A stretch of 37,206 bases of DNA from a virus (lineage: Duplodnaviria > Heunggongvirae > Uroviricota > Caudoviricetes). The notes under the pieces were generated by a model. That model worked only from the letters and a program-made list of their open reading frames with translations, did not search any database and was not told where the DNA came from. The stretch covers positions 1 to 37,206 of IMG/VR virus record IMGVR_UViG_2737471853_000011; one strand, 5' to 3'. The position numbers and the translations under genes were made by a program. Below, piece by piece: positions 28,930-35,838 of this stretch (the first letter of the stretch is position 1; every line of letters starts with the position of its first letter).

Positions 28930-29867
28930 CCCCTGAATCCTGCCGGGATCTGGCTGTAGTCCACGTTGTCGTAACTGGCTTTGAAGTACGGGTCTTCGCG
29001 TTTTTCTGTGTACGTGCTGACGGACGGCGATAAGCGCAGGGAAAGCTCATCCCATTTTTCCCGCAGCTTCGACGGGCTGAGCACGTTACGGCACCAGAAC
29101 GGATCGCGGCTGACGCGGCTGTACATCTCGCAGATTTGTTTGTGAGTACGACCATCCTGCACACACATCAGGCGAATTTCGTTTGCCCAGGCTGTCCAGT
29201 TCGGTTCTTTGGGACGAACCACCTCGCCGTCACATTCGGCGGCCTGCTCGTACAGGGCGATGATTTTTTTCCAGAGCCACTGTGCGCAGGTCAAATCATC
29301 CTGCGTTCCCCACTGGCGCTTTTTAGGGCTGAATACAACCGCATCAGGATGGCGAGTTAAAAACTCCTGTTCAGCCGTCTGCGTGTCCGGTTGCGAAGCG
29401 TCCGGACGAGAAGTTTTTTTATCTGACGGATCATGTTTTGATTTTACTGACGGATCCCCGCCAGATTCTGACGGGTGAAAACCCGCTTTTTTGCCAGATT
29501 TCGACGCATCAAATTTTGACGGGTCAGATTTTGATGCGTCAGATTTTGACGGGTCAGAATCTGACAATTGAGAAAATGCCGCTGCCTGAAGCTTCGCAAC
29601 GTTAAGCTGATAAACATTCGACGCATTGCGGTTACCCTGGCGACGCGCCTTACGCGTTAACCAGCCTTCTGCTTCCAGCCGTGCGATAGCCGTTCTGACG
29701 GTACTCATCCCCGCGCCAATCTGACGGGCAATGGTTTCAATTGATGGCCAGCACACACCTTCGTCATTACTGAAATCAGCCAGGCGGGCCATAATTGCCA
29801 CGCTGGATAATTTCATGCCTGACGCAGCGCAACCATCCCATACATAGCCGGTTAATTTAGTGCTCAT
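28926..29867 (-). CDS. Replication initiation protein (O-like) with internal iteron-encoded repeat
   Basis: N-terminal HTH; central SDPSK/SDASK repeats encoded by tandem 15-bp DNA repeats. Confidence 0.6.
   Translation of the reverse strand: MSTKLTGYVWDGCAASGMKLSSVAIMARLADFSNDEGVCWPSIETIARQIGAGMSTVRTAIARLEAEGWLTRKARRQGNRNASNVYQLNVAKLQAAAFSQLSDSDPSKSDASKSDPSKFDASKSGKKAGFHPSESGGDPSVKSKHDPSDKKTSRPDASQPDTQTAEQEFLTRHPDAVVFSPKKRQWGTQDDLTCAQWLWKKIIALYEQAAECDGEVVRPKEPNWTAWANEIRLMCVQDGRTHKQICEMYSRVSRDPFWCRNVLSPSKLREKWDELSLRLSPSVSTYTEKREDPYFKASYDNVDYSQIPAGFRG
29419..29570. repeat. Iteron array (candidate origin of replication) inside the initiator gene
   Basis: At least five good copies of AGATTTTGACGGGTC-like 15-mer (29463..29477, 29496..29555) plus degenerate copies. 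Confidence 0.6.
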
Positions 29868-31097: not shown

Positions 31098-31772
31098 ATG
31101 AAAACAATCCATGACATCCGGCGGTCTAACGCCAGAAAACTGAGAGATGGTGTTGGCGGGAATTCTTCCTTTGCCACTATGATTGATCGCGAGCCAACCC
31201 AGACCAGCAGGTTTATGGGAGATGGTGCTACTAAAAATATCGGTGACAGCATGGCACGACACATCGAAAAATGTTTCGACCTGCCTGTCGGATGGCTCGA
31301 TCAAGAACACCAGACAACGAACATCACAAAAAAACCTGATGTTTCAATCACTAATAAACAAATCACATTAGTCCCTGTCATATCATGGGTACAGGCCGGA
31401 GCATGGAAAGAAGTTGGATATTCTGAGGTTGATTTGAGCACAGCAGAAACGTATCCCTGCCCTGTACCCTGTGGGGAAATGACTTATATCTTGCGGGTGA
31501 TAGGTGATTCAATGATTGATGAGTACCGCCCGGGAGACATGATTTTTGTCGATCCTGAAGTACCTGCCTGCCACGGTGACGACGTTATTGCATTGATGCA
31601 CGATACAGGCGAAACCACCTTCAAAAGGTTGATAGAAGATGGGACACAGCGTTATCTCAAAGCGTTAAACCCAAACTGGCCTGAGCCTTACATTAAGATC
31701 AACGGTAATTGCTCTATAATTGGTACAGTGATTTTCTCAGGAAAACCAAGAAGATACAAAATCAAAGCCTAA
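31098..31772 (+). CDS. cI: CI-type repressor (HTH plus LexA-like S24 autopeptidase domain)
   Basis: 224-aa ORF; C-terminal half has the Ser...Lys autocleavage pattern (GDSM, KR); divergent from cro. Confidence 0.9.
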   Translation: MKTIHDIRRSNARKLRDGVGGNSSFATMIDREPTQTSRFMGDGATKNIGDSMARHIEKCFDLPVGWLDQEHQTTNITKKPDVSITNKQITLVPVISWVQAGAWKEVGYSEVDLSTAETYPCPVPCGEMTYILRVIGDSMIDEYRPGDMIFVDPEVPACHGDDVIALMHDTGETTFKRLIEDGTQRYLKALNPNWPEPYIKINGNCSIIGTVIFSGKPRRYKIKA

Positions 31773-31784
31773 TCAATGTTTATG

Positions 31785-31807
31785 AACCTGCTTCGGCAGG
31801 TTTTTTT
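31785..31807 (+). terminator. Rho-independent terminator after cI
   Basis: AACCTGC-TTCG-GCAGGTT followed by TTTTT. Confidence 0.7.
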
Positions 31808-31811
31808 ATAC

Positions 31812-31839
31812 TTGACAATGTACCTTTGAGATACATAAT
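31812..31839 (+). promoter_or_regulatory. pL-like promoter, TTGACA-N16-CATAAT, with two AATGTACC operator motifs (31817..31824, 31837..31844)
   Basis: Consensus -35; operator motif shared with the cI-cro intergenic region. Confidence 0.5.
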
Positions 31840-31928
31840 GTACCCAACCGAAACAACGAACAGGCAGGACGCCCACGAAGTAGCCGCCTGGGGCATATGA
31901 AGTCCAGGATGATTCGTTAGCAACAAAA

Positions 31929-31948
31929 AAGCGCCCTACAGGACGCTT
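31929..31948 (-). terminator. Possible minus-strand terminator shielding pL/cI from leftward transcription
   Basis: Read on minus strand: AAGCGTCC-TGTA-GGGCGCTT followed by TTTTGTTG. Confidence 0.35.
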
Positions 31949-32006
31949 AGCTCTTTAACAATCTGGTCCCCATCAACAAGTAACTGATAACTTGAGGAGG
32001 TGTGAA

Positions 32007-32213
32007 ATGCACAAAACAGAACCCAAAATCGTCGCGCCTGGCTACACAGATGAGGAAATTTATGAGTGGATGACAAAGAAGCTGGCAGCTATAAACCAGC
32101 TTCGTGAAGTGCTGTCTTATCGACAGGAAACAATAGACTCCTTAAAAAAACTGGATCAGGAAATCACGGTTTTATCACAGGATGTTACTTTAGATATTGT
32201 GCAGACAAATTAG
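32007..32213 (+). CDS. Hypothetical protein (68 aa), first gene after pL
   Basis: GAGGAGG RBS 6 nt upstream of ATG 32007; acidic, not Arg-rich like N. Confidence 0.55.
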   Translation: MHKTEPKIVAPGYTDEEIYEWMTKKLAAINQLREVLSYRQETIDSLKKLDQEITVLSQDVTLDIVQTN

Positions 32214-32619
32214 GATCCCATTCATTTTCGTCAAAATCATCAAAGTGATGAATTTGTGATCTCCAGTCTCGATAATCTAAAAATTTCTGGGCGGTTACGC
32301 TTATTTTATCAAGTGTGAGTTCATCCTGAATTGAAAGAAGAAGTTCATCAAATTTCATCTCATTAATCTGTTTTGGCATCCAGTGATGCTTCATCAGAAT
32401 AAGGTGAACCAGAGCCTTTTTCCCATTCAACTGATTATAGGGAGTGCCGAATTTCTTCCGGTGCTCATGTAAGACAAGGTCCAGAAGAGTAAGTAATGTT
32501 GCCCTTGATTCAACTTTGCTTATTTCGACTGATGACACTACCCCACTGATTTCAATGCCCCGATACTTTCCAACATTTTCACAGTGGGATTTGTACAGCG
32601 TGTAGATATTACCGGACAT
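32185..32619 (-). CDS. Hypothetical protein (144 aa), AT-rich, antisense within the early-left operon
   Basis: AGGA-type RBS; convergent with the 68-aa gene, 3' ends overlapping by 29 nt. Confidence 0.6.
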   Translation of the reverse strand: MSGNIYTLYKSHCENVGKYRGIEISGVVSSVEISKVESRATLLTLLDLVLHEHRKKFGTPYNQLNGKKALVHLILMKHHWMPKQINEMKFDELLLSIQDELTLDKISVTAQKFLDYRDWRSQIHHFDDFDENEWDPNLSAQYLK

Positions 32620-33163
32620 TTCTTTTCCTTTTGCGTTGTTGGGGATAACCAGATTAACCGAATCCTTGTTGTTGGGGAATAACCAGGTCCACCTCGCCTG
32701 ATGTGGCTAAAAGCAGGCACATAACAGCTAAGTATTTTCAACCAGAGAGAATCCTTAGCGTTGTGGTGAATGCGGCTCAGCGCACGCGGGTTAAGGTTGA
32801 GGCTGACAGTCGACCTTCTGTGGATACCCACCCGCCTGGTGTGCAACCTTCGCCAGGCACCGGGAGGCACCCGGCACCACAACTTTATGCTGTGTGTAGT
32901 CCTGGCGGTACCAGTTTGTACCCTTGCTTCCGGCTGGTACCGTCCTTTTTACAAAACAGAGAAGAGCATCACCGGACGACGGGCTCATAACCCAATCCAT
33001 CCGGGCGGCTGCCACCGCAGGTGTTCTTCTCTGTTTTGTGGAGAAACTAACCGCCCCTACGGGGGCATTTATGGAAATGTAATTGACTCAATAATCGCCG
33101 GACGGTGAGGGCTTCCTTTTACCCGAATTCAGCGCGGTGCAGCGCATATACGTGGAGAACAAA

Positions 33164-33700
33164 ATGTCATTTATTAAAACTTTTTCCGGGAAGCATTTTT
33201 ATTATGACAGGATAAATAAAGACGACATCGTTATTAACGATATCGCGGTTTCCCTTTCAAATATCTGTCGCTTTGCAGGACATCTTTCACACTTCTACAG
33301 TGTCGCCCAACATGCGGTGCTTTGCAGCCAGCTGGTGCCGCAGGAATTTGCTTTTGAAGCTTTAATGCATGATGCAACAGAAGCATATTGCCAGGACATC
33401 CCCGCACCACTGAAACGACTTCTTCCTGACTATAAACGGATGGAAGAAAAAATAGACGCCGTAATCCGTGAGAAATACGGGTTACCTCCTGTTATGAGCA
33501 CGCCAGTGAAATATGCCGATCTCATTATGCTGGCAACCGAACGCCGCGATCTCGGGCTTGATGATGGCTCTTTCTGGCCTGTGCTGGAAGGTATCCCGGC
33601 AACAGAGATGTTCAACGTGATTCCACTGGCTCCAGGCCATGCCTACGGGATGTTTATGGAACGCTTTAACGAATTATCGGAGTTACGCAAATGCGCATGA
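33164..33700 (+). CDS. HD-domain phosphohydrolase
   Basis: His..HD..D pattern (..SHFYSVAQHAVL.., ..LMHDATEAY..); GGAG RBS before ATG 33164. Confidence 0.65.
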   Translation: MSFIKTFSGKHFYYDRINKDDIVINDIAVSLSNICRFAGHLSHFYSVAQHAVLCSQLVPQEFAFEALMHDATEAYCQDIPAPLKRLLPDYKRMEEKIDAVIREKYGLPPVMSTPVKYADLIMLATERRDLGLDDGSFWPVLEGIPATEMFNVIPLAPGHAYGMFMERFNELSELRKCA

Positions 33701-34358: not shown

Positions 34359-34708
34359 TGGAGCCATACAGCCTCACACTCGATGAGGCCTGTCATTTTC
34401 TCAAGATATCCAGACCGACTGCCATTAACTGGATACGCACAGGGCGTCTTCAGGCAACACGCAAAGATCCCACTAAGAATAAATCTCCTTACCTCACAAC
34501 ACGACAAGCCTGCATTGCGGCTCTTCAGTCTCCGCTGCATACTGTCCAGGTGAGCGCGGGTGATGGCATAACAGAGGAAAGAAAATGTCACTCTTCCGCA
34601 GAGGTGAAATATGGTACGCCAGTTTCACATTGCCGAACGGTAAAAGATTTAAACAGTCTCTTGGAACAAAGGACAAAAGGCAGGCGACAGAACTCCATGA
34701 CAAGCTAA
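34358..34708 (+). CDS. xis: Excisionase (AlpA/Xis-type HTH), 116 aa
   Basis: AAGAGG RBS; HTH ..[26 protein letters not shown]..; 3' end overlaps int in another frame. Confidence 0.7.
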
Positions 34709-35748
34709 AGGCTGAAGCATGGCGGGTCAGCAAACTTGGTGAAATACCTGATATAACGTTCGAGGAAGCGTGTGTCAGGTGGCTTGAAGAGAAAGCACAT
34801 AAAAAATCACTGGACGATGACAAAAGCCGGATCGGATTCTGGCTTCAACATTTCGCAGGAATGCAACTAAGAGACATTACTGAATCAAAAATTTATTCAG
34901 CAATGCAGAAAATGACGAACCGGCGTCATGAGGAAAACTGGAAACTCAGGGCAGAAGCATGCAGAAAAAAAGGGAAACCTGTTCCAGAATACACGCCAAA
35001 ACCAGCGTCCGTTGCAACGAAGGCTACGCATCTTTCATTTATAAAGGCCCTACTAAGAGCCGCAGAGCGTGAATGGAAAATGCTGGATAAGGCACCAATT
35101 ATTAAAGTGCCTCAACCAAAGAATAAACGGATCCGCTGGCTGGAGCCCCATGAAGCACAAAGGCTGATTGATGAATGTCCGGAGCCATTAAAGTCTGTTG
35201 TTGAATTTGCACTGGCAACAGGCTTAAGACGCTCAAACATCATCAACCTTGAATGGCAACAAATAGATATGCAGCGCCGGGTGGCATGGATAAACCCGGA
35301 AGAGAGTAAATCAAACCGCGCAATTGGCGTTGCGCTGAATGATACTGCATGTCGCGTATTGAAAAAACAAATCGGGAATCATCACCGTTGGGTATTTGTG
35401 TACAAGGAAAGCTGTACCAAACCAGACGGAACGAAAGCGCCAACAGTAAGGAAGATGCGGTATGACGCAAACACAGCCTGGAAAGCGGCGCTGAGACGGG
35501 CTGGTATTGATGATTTCAGATTTCACGACTTGAGACACACCTGGGCAAGTTGGCTGGTTCAAGCCGGAGTCCCGTTGTCAGTGTTACAGGAAATGGGAGG
35601 CTGGGAGTCTATCGAAATGGTTCGTCGATATGCTCACCTTGCACCTAATCACCTTACCGAACACGCACGGCAAATAGACTCGATCCTGAACCCATCGGTC
35701 CCAAATTTGTCCCAGTCAAAAAATAAGGAAGGTACTAATGATGTGTAA
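34585..35748 (+). CDS. int: Tyrosine integrase, tRNA-Thr (thrW)-targeting type
   Basis: 387-aa ORF with R...HxxR...Y catalytic pattern (..[17 protein letters not shown]..), ends 14 bp from tRNA 3' end. Confidence 0.95.
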
Positions 35749-35762
35749 CTTATTGATTTAAA

Positions 35763-35838
35763 TGGTGCCGATAATAGGAGTCGAACCTACGACCTTCGCA
35801 TTACGAATGCGCTGCTCTACCAACTGAGCTATATCGGC
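35763..35838 (-). tRNA. thrW: tRNA-Thr (anticodon CGT), thrW-type, with encoded CCA
   Basis: Reverse complement GCCGATATAGCTCAGTTGGTAGAGCAGCGCATTCGTAATGCG..GGTTCGACTCCTATTATCGGCACCA has cloverleaf features and a T-loop. Confidence 0.95.

What the first reader, a model, noticed from the sequence alone, without database searches (positions are those of the whole stretch)
32880..33075. GC-rich structured non-coding element in the early-left operon, with no N-like antiterminator gene
Seen: a perfect 15-bp inverted repeat (ACAAAACAGAGAAGA at 32951..32965 and TCTTCTCTGTTTTGT at 33025..33039) encloses 59 nt of GC-rich sequence with internal pairing potential, followed by a second hairpin GCCCC-TAC-GGGGGC and an AT-rich tail (33050..33070). 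Just upstream (32907..32941) are GGTACC and TTGTACC motifs resembling the cI operator half-site. The only ORFs here are GC-rich and RBS-less. No small Arg-rich N-like protein is encoded after the pL-like promoter. Established: some lambdoid phages (HK022) use cis-acting RNA stem-loops instead of N to make RNA polymerase termination-resistant. Inference: this may be a put-like antitermination RNA, a processed sRNA, or a regulated terminator.
Basis: partly seen in the sequence, partly recalled or inferred. Interest (0 to 1): 0.55.

Follow-up and report, generated by a model that had tools for sequence, protein, structure and literature searches.

The report
Phage leader RNA with tRNA-like core
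This non-coding stretch of an E. coli prophage's early operon holds the tail of a DicF/STnc100-type small RNA, followed by a conserved folded RNA, absent from Rfam, that copies the anticodon arm of the initiator tRNA; it is probably an RNA-processing signal or a released tRNA mimic, not an HK022-type antiterminator.

Summary
The 15-bp inverted repeat is the core of a 25-bp helix (32946-32970 / 33020-33044) that closes a three-way junction. It folds at -63 kcal/mol (z = -7.4).

The fold is conserved across about 25 Enterobacterales species and many phages. In 40 distinct sequences, 12 of 34 pairs change on both sides. Conserved G-U pairs place it on the + strand as RNA. No reading frame is conserved.

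The "operator-like" GGTACC motifs are the stem of an intrinsic terminator (32904-32950). That terminator ends an STnc100-like / DicF-like small RNA at 32730-32952.

The junction's main arm carries CGGGCUCAUAACCC, which is identical to the anticodon stem-loop of E. coli initiator tRNA. In Klebsiella-type phages the same arm sits in a 70-nt RNA with a 6-bp terminal helix and a CCA end, 6 nt after a real tRNA. Phage P1 carries two copies.

No Rfam family matches the junction. It does not resemble HK022 put in sequence, fold, position or copy number. Better antitermination candidates lie next to pL: a covarying RNA at 31855-31918 and an rrn-type boxA at 31950-31961.

My best reading is an RNase III-type processing element that releases a tRNA-mimic cargo. 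That function is inferred, not shown.

The parts
31812..31839 (+). pL-like promoter (TTGACA, 16 nt, CATAAT) overlapped by ATGTACC operator-like motifs. It is the probable start of the transcript that carries the element.
   Evidence: 11 of 12 consensus positions. Searches show the operator TTGTACC-N5-GGTACAA at OR and related motifs here. cI ends at 31772 and its terminator is at 31784-31803.
31855..31918 (+). Conserved structured RNA just downstream of pL. It is context for the finding and a better candidate for a cis-acting antiterminator than the flagged element.
   Evidence: It occurs in 51 phage records across Escherichia, Salmonella, Yersinia, Pectobacterium, Klebsiella, Providencia and Aeromonas. 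The hairpin CCUGG/CCAGG (31887-91 / 31904-08) appears as CCCGG/CCGGG, CCGGU/ACCGG and CCCCA/UGGGG in relatives. The outer helix AACGAA/UUCGUU alternates with AGCGAA/UUCGCU. There is one copy in the window.
31950..31961 (+). rrn-type boxA-like motif GCTCTTTAACAA, preceded by a hairpin at 31930-31948. Context only.
   Evidence: It is the only match in the window, even allowing one mismatch. It recurs about 80 nt after the pL-proximal element in a subset of related leaders. The recalled rrn leader string containing this motif occurs a median of 7 times per E. coli genome.
32760..32883 (+). Multi-hairpin core of an STnc100-like RNA. The closing helix is GUUGUGGUG (32760-68) with CACCACAAC (32875-83). 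The last hairpin is CCGGG-AGGCA-CCCGG (32860-74).
   Evidence: Rfam STnc100 (RF02076) matches 32730-32952 at 43.1 bits, E = 9e-8, below the gathering score of 47. The fold is and the 9-bp perfect closing helix (I6). The AGGCA hairpin covaries: CCUGG/CCAGG in Qin and GGUGG/CCACC in Kp4866-6.
32884..32950 (+). DicF-like 3' module of that sRNA. A single-stranded, seed-like linker (32884-32903) is followed by an intrinsic terminator: a 13-bp stem (32904-16 / 32932-44) and UUUUU (32946-50).
   Evidence: The fold is. Alignment to K-12 DicF plus its tail scores 63.5 against 35.5 +/- 4.2 for shuffles. The motif UUGCUGUGUGUAGUCUUGGCGG, then a hairpin and a U-tract, recurs upstream of the junction in many species. 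The Rfam DicF model scores only 15.7 bits.
32946..33044 (+). Conserved three-way-junction RNA, the centre of the finding. P1 is a 25-bp helix (32946-70 / 33020-44). P2 is the arm at 32972-33004, with apical GGG-CUCAUAA-CCC at 32981-93. P3 is a variable hairpin at 33005-18.
   Evidence: Fold and z-score are. My covariance model R1 scores 113.7 bits on the + strand and 42.3 on the - strand, with one copy in the window. No Rfam family matches.
32980..32993 (+). CGGGCTCATAACCC: 14 consecutive bases identical to the anticodon stem-loop of E. coli initiator tRNA (three G-C pairs and the CUCAUAA loop).
   Evidence: The tRNA sequence was checked against annotated tRNA-Met genes and is 100% identical in 5426 of 5426 genomes. 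The longest common substring is 14 nt, and it is the only 14-mer of that tRNA present in the window.
33053..33066 (+). Small stable hairpin, GCCCC(UACG)GGGGC, between the junction and the first downstream gene.
   Evidence: Relatives keep a hairpin here with unrelated sequence (CGACC..GGGUCG, GGCGG..CCGCC) and no U-tract.
33164..33700 (+). yfdR (5'-deoxynucleotidase), the first gene after the element in this prophage. Relatives have yfdP or an rdgC-like gene here.
   Evidence: The first ORF after the junction differs between loci: yfdP-type, a 305-aa rdgC-like protein, or yfdR.

Best explanation
The interval is part of a long, modular, non-coding leader of the early-left (pL) operon of an SfV/SfII/ST64B-type prophage inserted at the thrW tRNA gene.

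Its first 70 nt are the 3' end of an STnc100-like / DicF-like small RNA: a single-stranded, seed-like stretch followed by an intrinsic terminator.

Directly after the terminator's U-tract, and partly built from it, lies a conserved three-way-junction RNA derived from a tRNA. Its 25-bp basal helix most likely acts as a double-strand-specific (RNase III-type) processing site in transcripts that read through the terminator. Cleavage there would do three things:
1. Separate the upstream small-RNA module from the downstream mRNA.
2. Release a 50-60-nt cargo (P2 + P3) that carries a copy of the initiator-tRNA anticodon arm.
3. Leave the mRNA starting just before a small stable hairpin.

Shown here: the RNA structure, its strand, its conservation, its fixed position after a terminator and before the first gene, its tRNA relationship, and the lack of any put-like features.

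Inferred: RNase III cleavage, release of the cargo, and any action of the cargo in trans.
For: Structure and conservation:
- Strong fold on the + strand.
- Of 34 pairs, 9 (18 sequences) and 12 (40 distinct sequences) change on both sides.
- 95% of cells are paired, against 53% or less when partners are slid. No shuffle of 500 reaches the observed covariation score.
- The Yersinia copy keeps the helix with an almost entirely different sequence.
- A conserved U-G pair, and a 70-bit advantage for the + strand, argue for RNA rather than DNA.

Position:
- In nearly all long-helix copies the 5' arm begins at the U-tract of a terminator.
- The 3' end lies about 10-150 nt before the first ORF, whichever gene that is. 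This fits a leader or processing role, not a gene-specific operator.

Helix length:
- P1 offers the roughly 24 duplex positions that E. coli RNase III reads, and the enclosed 49 nt is within the reported spacing of paired cleavages (PMC6212723).

Precedent:
- Qin carries the same module types (DicF 76.7 bits, STnc100-like 34.1 bits).

The cargo matters in itself:
- The same P2 arm occurs with a short 6-bp helix and a CCA end, 6 nt after tRNA-Arg, downstream of Q in Klebsiella-type phages.
- It occurs twice in the P1 ban operon.
Against: - There is no expression, end-mapping or nuclease data for this locus.
- I found nothing in the held literature on this element.
- A pure processing role does not explain why the P2 loop and internal loop (ACGGG-N-UCAUA-N-CCCAAUCYA) are nearly invariant.
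- Most relatives carry a conserved mismatch in the middle of P1 (33 of 40 sequences). This could weaken RNase III recognition or tune it.
- K-12 CPS-53 has lost the element while keeping yfdP-yfdT, so it is dispensable for a cryptic prophage.
- It is not shown that pL transcripts reach the element. In this window they would first have to cross a convergent gene (32185-32619, - strand).
Confidence: 0.5

Rival explanations
1. Trans-acting initiator-tRNA mimic. The P2/P3 cargo is the functional product. It acts as a decoy or competitor for a factor that reads the anticodon arm of initiator tRNA. Candidates are VapC-type toxins, which cut tRNA-fMet in that stem-loop, MetRS, or the 30S P site with IF3. 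The long helix, or tRNA-type ends in the short-helix form, only serves to release it. This overlaps with the best explanation and differs in where the function lies.
For: - 14-nt identity to the tRNA-fMet anticodon stem-loop.
- Near-invariance of the P2 apical sequence across genera while P1 and P3 change.
- The same cargo sits in two different 'packages': a long helix, or a 6-bp helix with CCA after a tRNA.
- VapC of Shigella and Salmonella cleaves tRNA-fMet in the anticodon stem-loop (PMC4705866). SfII, SfIV, SfV and ST64B, which carry the element, infect those genera.
Against: - No experimental link exists.
- ST64B and Kp4866-6 have U at the position equivalent to the conserved purine 37. 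The short-helix form has a G-U in place of one of the three G-C pairs.
- The arm below the three G-C pairs differs from the tRNA.
- Neither ARAGORN nor the Rfam tRNA model recognises any form as a tRNA.
- My searches of the held literature returned no phage decoy of this kind.
Confidence: 0.15
2. Cis-acting regulator of the downstream mRNA. The junction and the small hairpin control translation initiation or stability of the first early-left gene. Possible routes are binding a protein, pairing of the CUCAUA loop with the start-codon region, or acting as a protective 5' structure.
For: - It always lies within about 150 nt upstream of the first ORF.
- A structurally conserved small hairpin sits between it and the ribosome-binding site.
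- The P2 loop is complementary to UAUGAG-type sequences at several downstream starts. In phiNP, GCUCAUA faces UAUGAGC at the yfdP start (read by eye).
Against: - The downstream gene differs between loci: yfdP, an rdgC-like gene or yfdR.
- The P1 copies and the short-helix copies are not followed by such genes.
- The loop-to-start complementarity is short (5-7 nt). AUGA-rich starts make it likely by chance, and I did not test it statistically.
Confidence: 0.15
3. One reading: a put-like cis-acting antiterminator RNA that makes RNA polymerase resistant to terminators.
For: - The operon lacks an N-like gene.
- The leader contains at least one intrinsic terminator that must be read through.
- The element is a stable nascent-RNA structure.
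Against: - No sequence similarity to HK022 putL or the HK022 immunity region.
- put is two open stem-loops of about 70 nt, just downstream of pL and about 270 nt downstream of pR (PMC9378689). This is a closed three-way junction about 1.1 kb from pL, downstream of the terminator it would need to suppress, and present once.
- It also occurs after tRNAs in late operons that are already controlled by Q.
Confidence: 0.05
4. A decaying tRNA pseudogene or selfish palindromic repeat with no function of its own.
For: - tRNA-derived sequence.
- Modular shuffling of neighbouring elements between phages.
- Lost from K-12 CPS-53.
Against: - Compensatory changes keep three helices across genera.
- Position relative to the terminator and the first gene is kept.
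- The P2 sequence is near-invariant.
Confidence: 0.07
5. A DNA-level site: a cruciform, a protein-binding palindrome such as a repressor operator, or a recombination site.
For: - A perfect 15-bp palindromic repeat.
- TTGTACC and GGTACC words nearby resemble operator halves.
Against: - Conserved G-U pairs would be A-C mismatches on the other strand. The - strand scores 70 bits lower with the model.
- The GGTACC stem persists in phages with unrelated operators.
- There is no TTGTACC-N5-GGTACAA arrangement here.
Confidence: 0.03

Closest known systems
DicF and the dicBF operon of the Qin prophage (E. coli K-12)
   Same: - A small RNA with its own intrinsic terminator sits inside the early operon downstream of the repressor gene.
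- The stem start UUUGGCGGUAnCAGUUU and the U5 tail are shared.
- An STnc100-like multi-hairpin domain is adjacent.
[quoted passage not shown]
   Different: - The module order is reversed. In Qin it is DicF then the STnc100-like domain; here the domain comes first, then the DicF-like tail.
- The Rfam DicF model scores only 15.7 bits here, against a threshold of 48.
- The 3' half of the DicF alignment is the less well conserved part here. From memory, that half is the part reported to pair with ftsZ.
- Qin has no three-way junction.
STnc100 (Rfam RF02076) and the related PasD prophage sRNAs
   Same: - Full-length match to the model over 32730-32952 (E = 9e-8).
- It has the same closing helix, the CACCGGGAGGCACCCGGCACCA block and a 3' terminator.
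- STnc100 and PasD are prophage-borne (bioRxiv 10.64898/2026.05.13.724894).
   Different: - The score is below the curated threshold (43.1 against 47).
- Canonical copies lie in late regions, near Q or downstream of stx2. This one is in the early-left leader.
- The family's function is unknown.
HK022 put RNAs
   Same: Both are cis-encoded structured RNAs in early operons of lambdoid phages that lack N.
   Different: - No sequence similarity.
- Different topology.
- Different distance from the promoter.
- A single copy.
- It lies downstream of the terminator it would need to suppress.
RNase III processing helices: rRNA precursor stems, the phage lambda N leader, T7 early mRNA sites, and the metY-nusA-infB leader (recalled from my own knowledge)
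   Same: - A long, nearly perfect helix formed by sequences that flank a structured cargo or precede the first cistron of an operon.
- Its length matches the roughly 24 positions read by the enzyme.
   Different: - Cleavage has not been shown here.
- The enclosed cargo is a small tRNA-like junction, not an rRNA or a plain loop.
Initiator tRNA (tRNA-fMet) and tRNA-like small RNAs such as bacterial Y RNA-like YrlA
   Same: - 14-nt identity with the tRNA-fMet anticodon stem-loop.
- The short-helix form is about tRNA-sized, ends in CCA and sits in a tRNA array.
- Like Y RNAs, the long-helix form combines a long terminal helix with a tRNA-like module.
   Different: - It is not recognised as a tRNA.
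- There is no D arm or T-loop consensus.
- There is no YrlA match. E. coli has no rsr gene (from my own knowledge).
- YrlA, as I recall it, mimics the acceptor, T and D parts of a tRNA, not the anticodon arm.

Membership tests
HK022 put RNA | About 70 nt folded as two adjacent stem-loops with no enclosing helix | tested here: not met
   This is a closed three-way junction with a 25-bp basal helix. The put description is from PMC9378689.
HK022 put RNA | Sequence similarity to putL or putR | tested here: not met
   blastn-short of window 31780-33140 against the HK022 immunity region gave only chance words of 9-14 nt.
HK022 put RNA | Lies just downstream of pL, with a second copy downstream of pR | tested here: not met
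   pL is at 31812-31839 and the element starts at 32946. There is one copy in the window.
HK022 put RNA | Suppresses pausing and termination by binding the beta-prime zinc-binding domain | not testable with these tools
   Needs transcription assays and rpoC mutants.
STnc100 (RF02076) | Reaches Rfam's gathering score | tested here: not met
   43.1 bits against 47. E = 9e-8 over all 206 model positions. Not listed in the gathering-threshold scan.
STnc100 (RF02076) | Closing helix, terminal AGGCA hairpin and 3' terminator hairpin with a U-tail | tested here: met
   The AGGCA hairpin covaries in Qin and Kp4866-6.
DicF (RF00039) | Reaches Rfam's gathering score | tested here: not met
   15.7 bits against 48 at 32891-32945. 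Genuine DicF scores 76.7.
DicF (RF00039) | Sequence similarity to K-12 DicF beyond chance | tested here: met
   Global alignment score 63.5, against 35.5 +/- 4.2 (maximum 49.5) for 500 shuffles.
Intrinsic terminator (32904-32950) | Stable stem directly followed by a run of U | tested here: met
   A 13-bp stem followed by C and UUUUU. The consensus scan missed it because the loop exceeds 8 nt.
Intrinsic terminator (second hairpin, 33053-33066) | Stem followed by a run of U on the + strand | tested here: not met
   The tail is AUUUAUGG. Relatives keep the hairpin without a U-tract. The scan reported it only on the - strand.
tRNA | Cloverleaf recognised by ARAGORN or the Rfam tRNA model | tested here: not met
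   No call in the window. No call for the CCA-ended form in phage GZ7, even at E up to 10.
tRNA-derived element | Shares a tRNA-specific sequence block and tRNA-array context | tested here: met
   14-nt identity to the tRNA-fMet anticodon stem-loop. The short-helix form lies 6 nt after tRNA-Arg and ends in ACCA or GCCA.
RNase III substrate | About 24 positions of nearly continuous intramolecular duplex | tested here: met
   P1 is 25 bp in the window and is kept across 40 distinct sequences, of which 33 have one internal mismatch. The rule is from PMC6212723.
RNase III substrate | Cleaved by RNase III in vivo or in vitro | not testable with these tools
   K-12, where cleavage maps exist, lacks the element.
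Y RNA-like (YrlA, RF02553) | Match to the family model | tested here: not met
   No YrlA match at E up to 10 over 32300-33400.
Retron non-coding RNA | Flanking inverted repeats plus an adjacent reverse transcriptase gene | tested here: not met
   No reverse transcriptase among the neighbouring ORFs.
cI operator of this phage | TTGTACC-N5-GGTACAA palindrome as at OR, specific to the immunity type | tested here: not met
   That arrangement is absent at 32907-32941. The GGTACC stem is kept in phiNP and mEp460, which have other operators.

The most novel reading that the evidence does not exclude
The three-way junction is the container for a new class of phage-encoded, trans-acting mimic of the initiator-tRNA anticodon arm. 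Phages release the same 50-70-nt cargo by two routes. In early-left (pL) leaders and the P1 ban operon, RNase III cuts a long flanking helix. In late-operon tRNA arrays, tRNA-type end processing yields a CCA-ended form. The cargo then acts as a decoy for host factors that read tRNA-fMet. The most attractive candidates are VapC-type toxins, which cut the initiator anticodon loop. If so, this would be an RNA-based counter-defence or a tool for taking over translation.
Probability: 0.12. Interest if true: 0.8.

Novelty: new variant of a known kind. Interest (0 to 1): 0.5.

Why it matters
1. It corrects the map of this region. The "operator-like" motifs are a terminator, the flagged hairpin is not an antiterminator, and the annotated hypothetical ORFs over it are probably spurious. 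These include a PGAP frameshifted pseudogene and PHROG families 3651 and 33599.

2. It defines a covarying RNA motif that Rfam 15 does not hold. The motif is present in about half of complete E. coli genomes (2784 of 5426 match the 521-nt region). It also occurs in well-studied phages: SfII, SfIV, SfV, ST64B, mEp460, Stx2 phages and P1.

3. It shows that leaders of temperate-phage operons (pL, the P1 ban operon, late leaders downstream of Q) are built from shuffled RNA modules: DicF-like, STnc100-like, long-helix tRNA-like and true tRNAs. This gives a frame for studying how prophage small RNAs are made.

4. If the tRNA-fMet mimicry is functional, it would be a new kind of RNA-level interaction between phage and host translation or toxin systems.

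Tried and rejected
- Coding. ORFs across the region have no Pfam match. The PHROG matches are to families of unknown function, and they rest on translation of the conserved RNA segments (for example VDWVMSPS on the - strand). Frames and lengths are not conserved in ST64B or phiNP, and element lengths differ by non-multiples of three. Rejected.
- put homology. Direct comparison with HK022 found nothing.
- Own promoter for the STnc100-like RNA. The scan found none between 32620 and 32730, and I saw none by eye. Left open.
- Expression data. K-12 CPS-53 has a deletion that removes the element, so K-12 data sets cannot help. The Salmonella prophage transcriptome paper does not discuss the ST64B leader.
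- King et al. 2011 on put-like RNAs could not be retrieved.
- Retron, Y RNA, riboswitch, ribozyme and known sRNA families. Rfam gave only the sub-threshold STnc100 match, weak DicF hits, and chance-level microRNA-type hits to the long hairpin.
- Attenuator idea, that P1 competes with the terminator. Rejected, because the 3' arm of P1 is transcribed about 75-95 nt after the U-tract, and P1 does not use the terminator stem.
- Whether the sRNA is one of the published Pas sRNAs. This could not be decided because the preprint text gives no sequences.
Full report
**Setting**

The window ends with a P22-type integrase (34585-35748), an excisionase and tRNA-Thr (35766-35838). It is 100% identical, over the 521-nt region queried (32620-33140), to a prophage at thrW in E. 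coli PCN061.
- The repressor gene (31098-31772, + strand) faces cro across operators of the form TTGTACC-N5-GGTACAA.
- Downstream of the repressor's terminator lies a near-consensus promoter, TTGACA-16-CATAAT, at 31812-31839, overlapped by ATGTACC motifs. This is the pL equivalent.
- Between pL and int the ORFs are: a 68-aa protein of unknown function, a convergent 144-aa "ECs1072 family" gene on the - strand, yfdR, a DUF551 protein, yfdT and xis. None resembles N.
- The 517 nt from 32620 to 33136 are non-coding, and the finding lies inside this stretch.

The 15-bp inverted repeat is at the stated coordinates. It extends to a 25-bp helix once G-U pairs are allowed.
- Only three inverted repeats of this size exist in the 37-kb window.
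- The + strand RNA folds at -63 kcal/mol, 7.4 standard deviations below shuffled sequence. The - strand gives -56.9.
- The helix (P1) closes a junction with two hairpins, P2 (32972-33004) and P3 (33005-33018).
- The second hairpin is a 5-bp G+C stem on a UACG loop (33053-33066).

**What precedes it**

A sensitive Rfam scan matches STnc100 (RF02076) over its whole length at 32730-32952. The E-value is 9e-8 and the score 43.1 bits, just under the curated 47.
- The match includes the block CACCGGGAGGCACCCGGCACCA and, at its 3' end, a terminator.
TTGTACC ... GGTACC": a 13-bp stem (32904-16 / 32932-44) followed by UUUUU.
- The same stem is kept in phiNP and mEp460, whose operators are different. 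These motifs are therefore not operator half-sites.
- The 69 nt from 32884 to 32952 also align with K-12 DicF and its tail far better than shuffles do (63.5 against 35.5 +/- 4.2). They share UGGCGGUAnCAGUUU and the U-tail.
- Upstream of the junction in many species the same layout recurs: a conserved single-stranded stretch (UUGCUGUGUGUAGUCUUGGCGG), a hairpin and a U-tract. This is the anatomy of a base-pairing small RNA.
- In K-12 Qin, genuine DicF (76.7 bits) is followed directly by an STnc100-like domain (34.1 bits) before dicB. The two module types travel together, in either order.
- STnc100 and its relative PasD are known prophage sRNAs of unknown function.

**The junction is a conserved RNA**

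BLAST and a motif scan found it in:
- SfII, SfIV, SfV, mEp460, Stx2 phages, ST64B, phiNP and Klebsiella phages;
- 120 or more viral contigs;
- about 25 Enterobacterales species among species-representative genomes. The remaining hits of that scan are at the number expected by chance, by my arithmetic, and gave no model match.

Covariation was counted on two alignments:
- On a hand-checked alignment of 18 diverse copies, 95% of cells pair, against 50% or less when partners are slid. Nine of 34 pairs change on both sides.
- On 40 distinct copies aligned with my covariance model, 12 of 34 pairs do, and no shuffle of 500 reaches the observed score.

Further points:
- A Yersinia copy keeps P1 and the base of P2 with almost entirely different sequence.
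- A U-G pair is conserved in 35 of 40 sequences, and the model scores about 70 bits higher on the + strand. The structure is therefore RNA, read in the direction of the early-left operon.
- Element lengths (101-128 nt) do not differ by multiples of three. The ORFs called across it differ between relatives.
- The PGAP "frameshifted hypothetical protein" and the PHROG matches therefore reflect conserved RNA, not protein.

**Its position is fixed**

- In nearly every long-helix copy the 5' arm starts at the U-tract of a terminator.
- The 3' end lies within about 150 nt of the first ORF of the early-left operon.
- That ORF varies: yfdP-type, a 305-aa rdgC-like protein, or yfdR as here.
- Between the junction and the start codon, relatives keep a small hairpin of unrelated sequence with no U-tract.

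**It is derived from a tRNA**

- The apical part of P2, CGGGCUCAUAACCC (32980-32993), is identical to the anticodon stem-loop of E. coli initiator tRNA. This includes the three G-C pairs and the CUCAUAA loop.
- I checked the tRNA sequence against annotated genes in 5426 genomes. This is the only 14-mer of that tRNA present in the window.
- In Klebsiella-type phages the same P2 arm sits in a 70-nt RNA with a 6-bp terminal helix (GGCCUG/CAGGCC) followed by ACCA or GCCA. It starts 6 nt after tRNA-Arg, in an array downstream of Q. My model finds it with positions 20-82 only.
- ARAGORN and the Rfam tRNA model do not call it a tRNA.
- Phage P1 has two copies in the C1-controlled ban operon, among true tRNAs. 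Each is followed by an STnc100-like domain.
- Other long-helix elements in the same leaders carry canonical T-arm sequences.
- The cargo is therefore conserved while its packaging differs.

**Not put-like**

- put RNAs are about 70 nt, consist of two open stem-loops, and sit just downstream of pL and about 270 nt downstream of pR.
- The junction has no sequence in common with HK022 and has a different topology.
- It lies about 1.1 kb from pL and after the terminator it would need to suppress. It is present once.

Two better candidates for terminator read-through lie next to pL:
1. A 64-nt RNA at 31855-31918. It is conserved in 51 phage records from seven or more genera. One of its hairpins appears in four mutually complementary versions, and its outer helix covaries. 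Its fold is not that of put.
2. A perfect rrn-type boxA core, GCTCTTTAACAA, at 31950-31961, preceded by a hairpin. It recurs at the same distance in a subset of related leaders.

**How it most likely works**

- P1 offers the roughly 24 duplex positions that E. coli RNase III reads, with the two strands 49 nt apart.
- In the related dicBF operon, RNase III and RNase E cut DicF out of the polycistronic early transcript.
- I therefore read P1 as a processing helix for transcripts that pass the terminator.
- Cleavage would trim the upstream small RNA back to its terminator hairpin, free the P2/P3 cargo, and leave the mRNA starting just before the small hairpin.
- The near-invariance of the P2 loop and internal loop, and the existence of a CCA-ended form, suggest the cargo itself has a function. 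The most interesting possibility is mimicry of the initiator-tRNA anticodon arm toward a factor such as VapC, which cleaves tRNA-fMet there in Shigella and Salmonella.
- None of these functional steps has been tested. My searches of the held literature found nothing on this element.

**Verdict**

- The put-like and operator readings are not supported.
- The first part of the interval belongs to a known kind of prophage sRNA.
- The junction is a covarying motif that Rfam does not hold. I class it as a new variant among phage leader and tRNA-like RNAs.

Noticed in passing
window 31855-31918 (+): A conserved structured RNA lies immediately downstream of pL. One hairpin appears in four mutually complementary versions and the outer helix covaries. 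It occurs in phages of at least seven genera and has no Rfam match. It is a candidate cis-acting antiterminator or protein-binding site. Its fold differs from HK022 put.
   Followed up: partly
window 31930-31961 (+): A hairpin is followed by GCTCTTTAACAA, a perfect rrn-type boxA core, about 105 nt downstream of the pL start. It is the only match in the window, and it recurs at the same offset in a subset of related leaders. The same hairpin reads as a terminator on the - strand.
   Followed up: partly
L134 2947-3087 (K-12 Qin prophage, between dicF and dicB): An STnc100-like multi-hairpin domain (34.1 bits, E = 1e-5) directly follows DicF. Its closing helix is long and starts right after the DicF U-tract. 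It is not annotated in the record.
   Followed up: partly
L004 1480-2630 (phage P1 ban operon; AF234172 about 69056-70206): The leader is packed with RNA modules: a dicF-like region, long-helix elements (one with a canonical T-arm at 1927-2010), two tRNAs, two copies of the three-way junction, and two STnc100-like domains. In each pair, the 3' arm of the junction helix overlaps the 5' strand of the next domain's closing helix. The annotated - strand ORFs plp and upl overlap these RNAs.
   Followed up: partly
L006 2140-2282 and L007 about 2150-2290: phiNP and Kp4866-6 carry a further long-helix element that encloses two T-arm-like hairpins (GGTTCGATTCC, GTTCAATTCGG). It lies directly upstream of their STnc100-like domain.
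   Followed up: no
window 32690-32720 (+): The motif CCACCUCGCCUGAUGUGGCUAAAAGCAGGC can form an H-type pseudoknot (CCAC/GUGG interleaved with GCCUG/CAGGC). It recurs upstream of the DicF-like module in several species.
   Followed up: no
window 32636-32652 and 32672-32689: Direct repeat TTGTTGGGGATAACCAG / TTGTTGGGGAATAACCAG, just upstream of the - strand ECs1072-family gene. It may be a regulatory site for that inserted gene.
   Followed up: no
window 29462-29563: These are the only other sizeable inverted repeats in the window. They are GACGGGTCAGA-type iterons inside the replication-gene region, typical of a lambdoid origin. The same repeats survive in K-12 CPS-53.
   Followed up: no
window 32763-33082; L001 4144-4463: RefSeq annotates a frameshifted hypothetical pseudogene here, and PHROG families 3651 and 33599 match ORFs on either strand. 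These appear to be artefacts of calling ORFs on a conserved G+C-rich RNA region.
   Followed up: partly
window 33045-33163: Relatives have yfdP and yfdQ after the small hairpin. This prophage goes straight to yfdR. The leftover ATGGAAATGTAA mini-ORF (33071-33082) suggests a deletion or replacement of the yfdP-yfdQ segment.
   Followed up: no
L147 (contig labelled Chryseobacterium sp. 18061): The contig carries a full-scoring copy of the junction (102.7 bits) and the enterobacterial pL-proximal motif. It is probably contamination or a mixed culture in that assembly.
   Followed up: no
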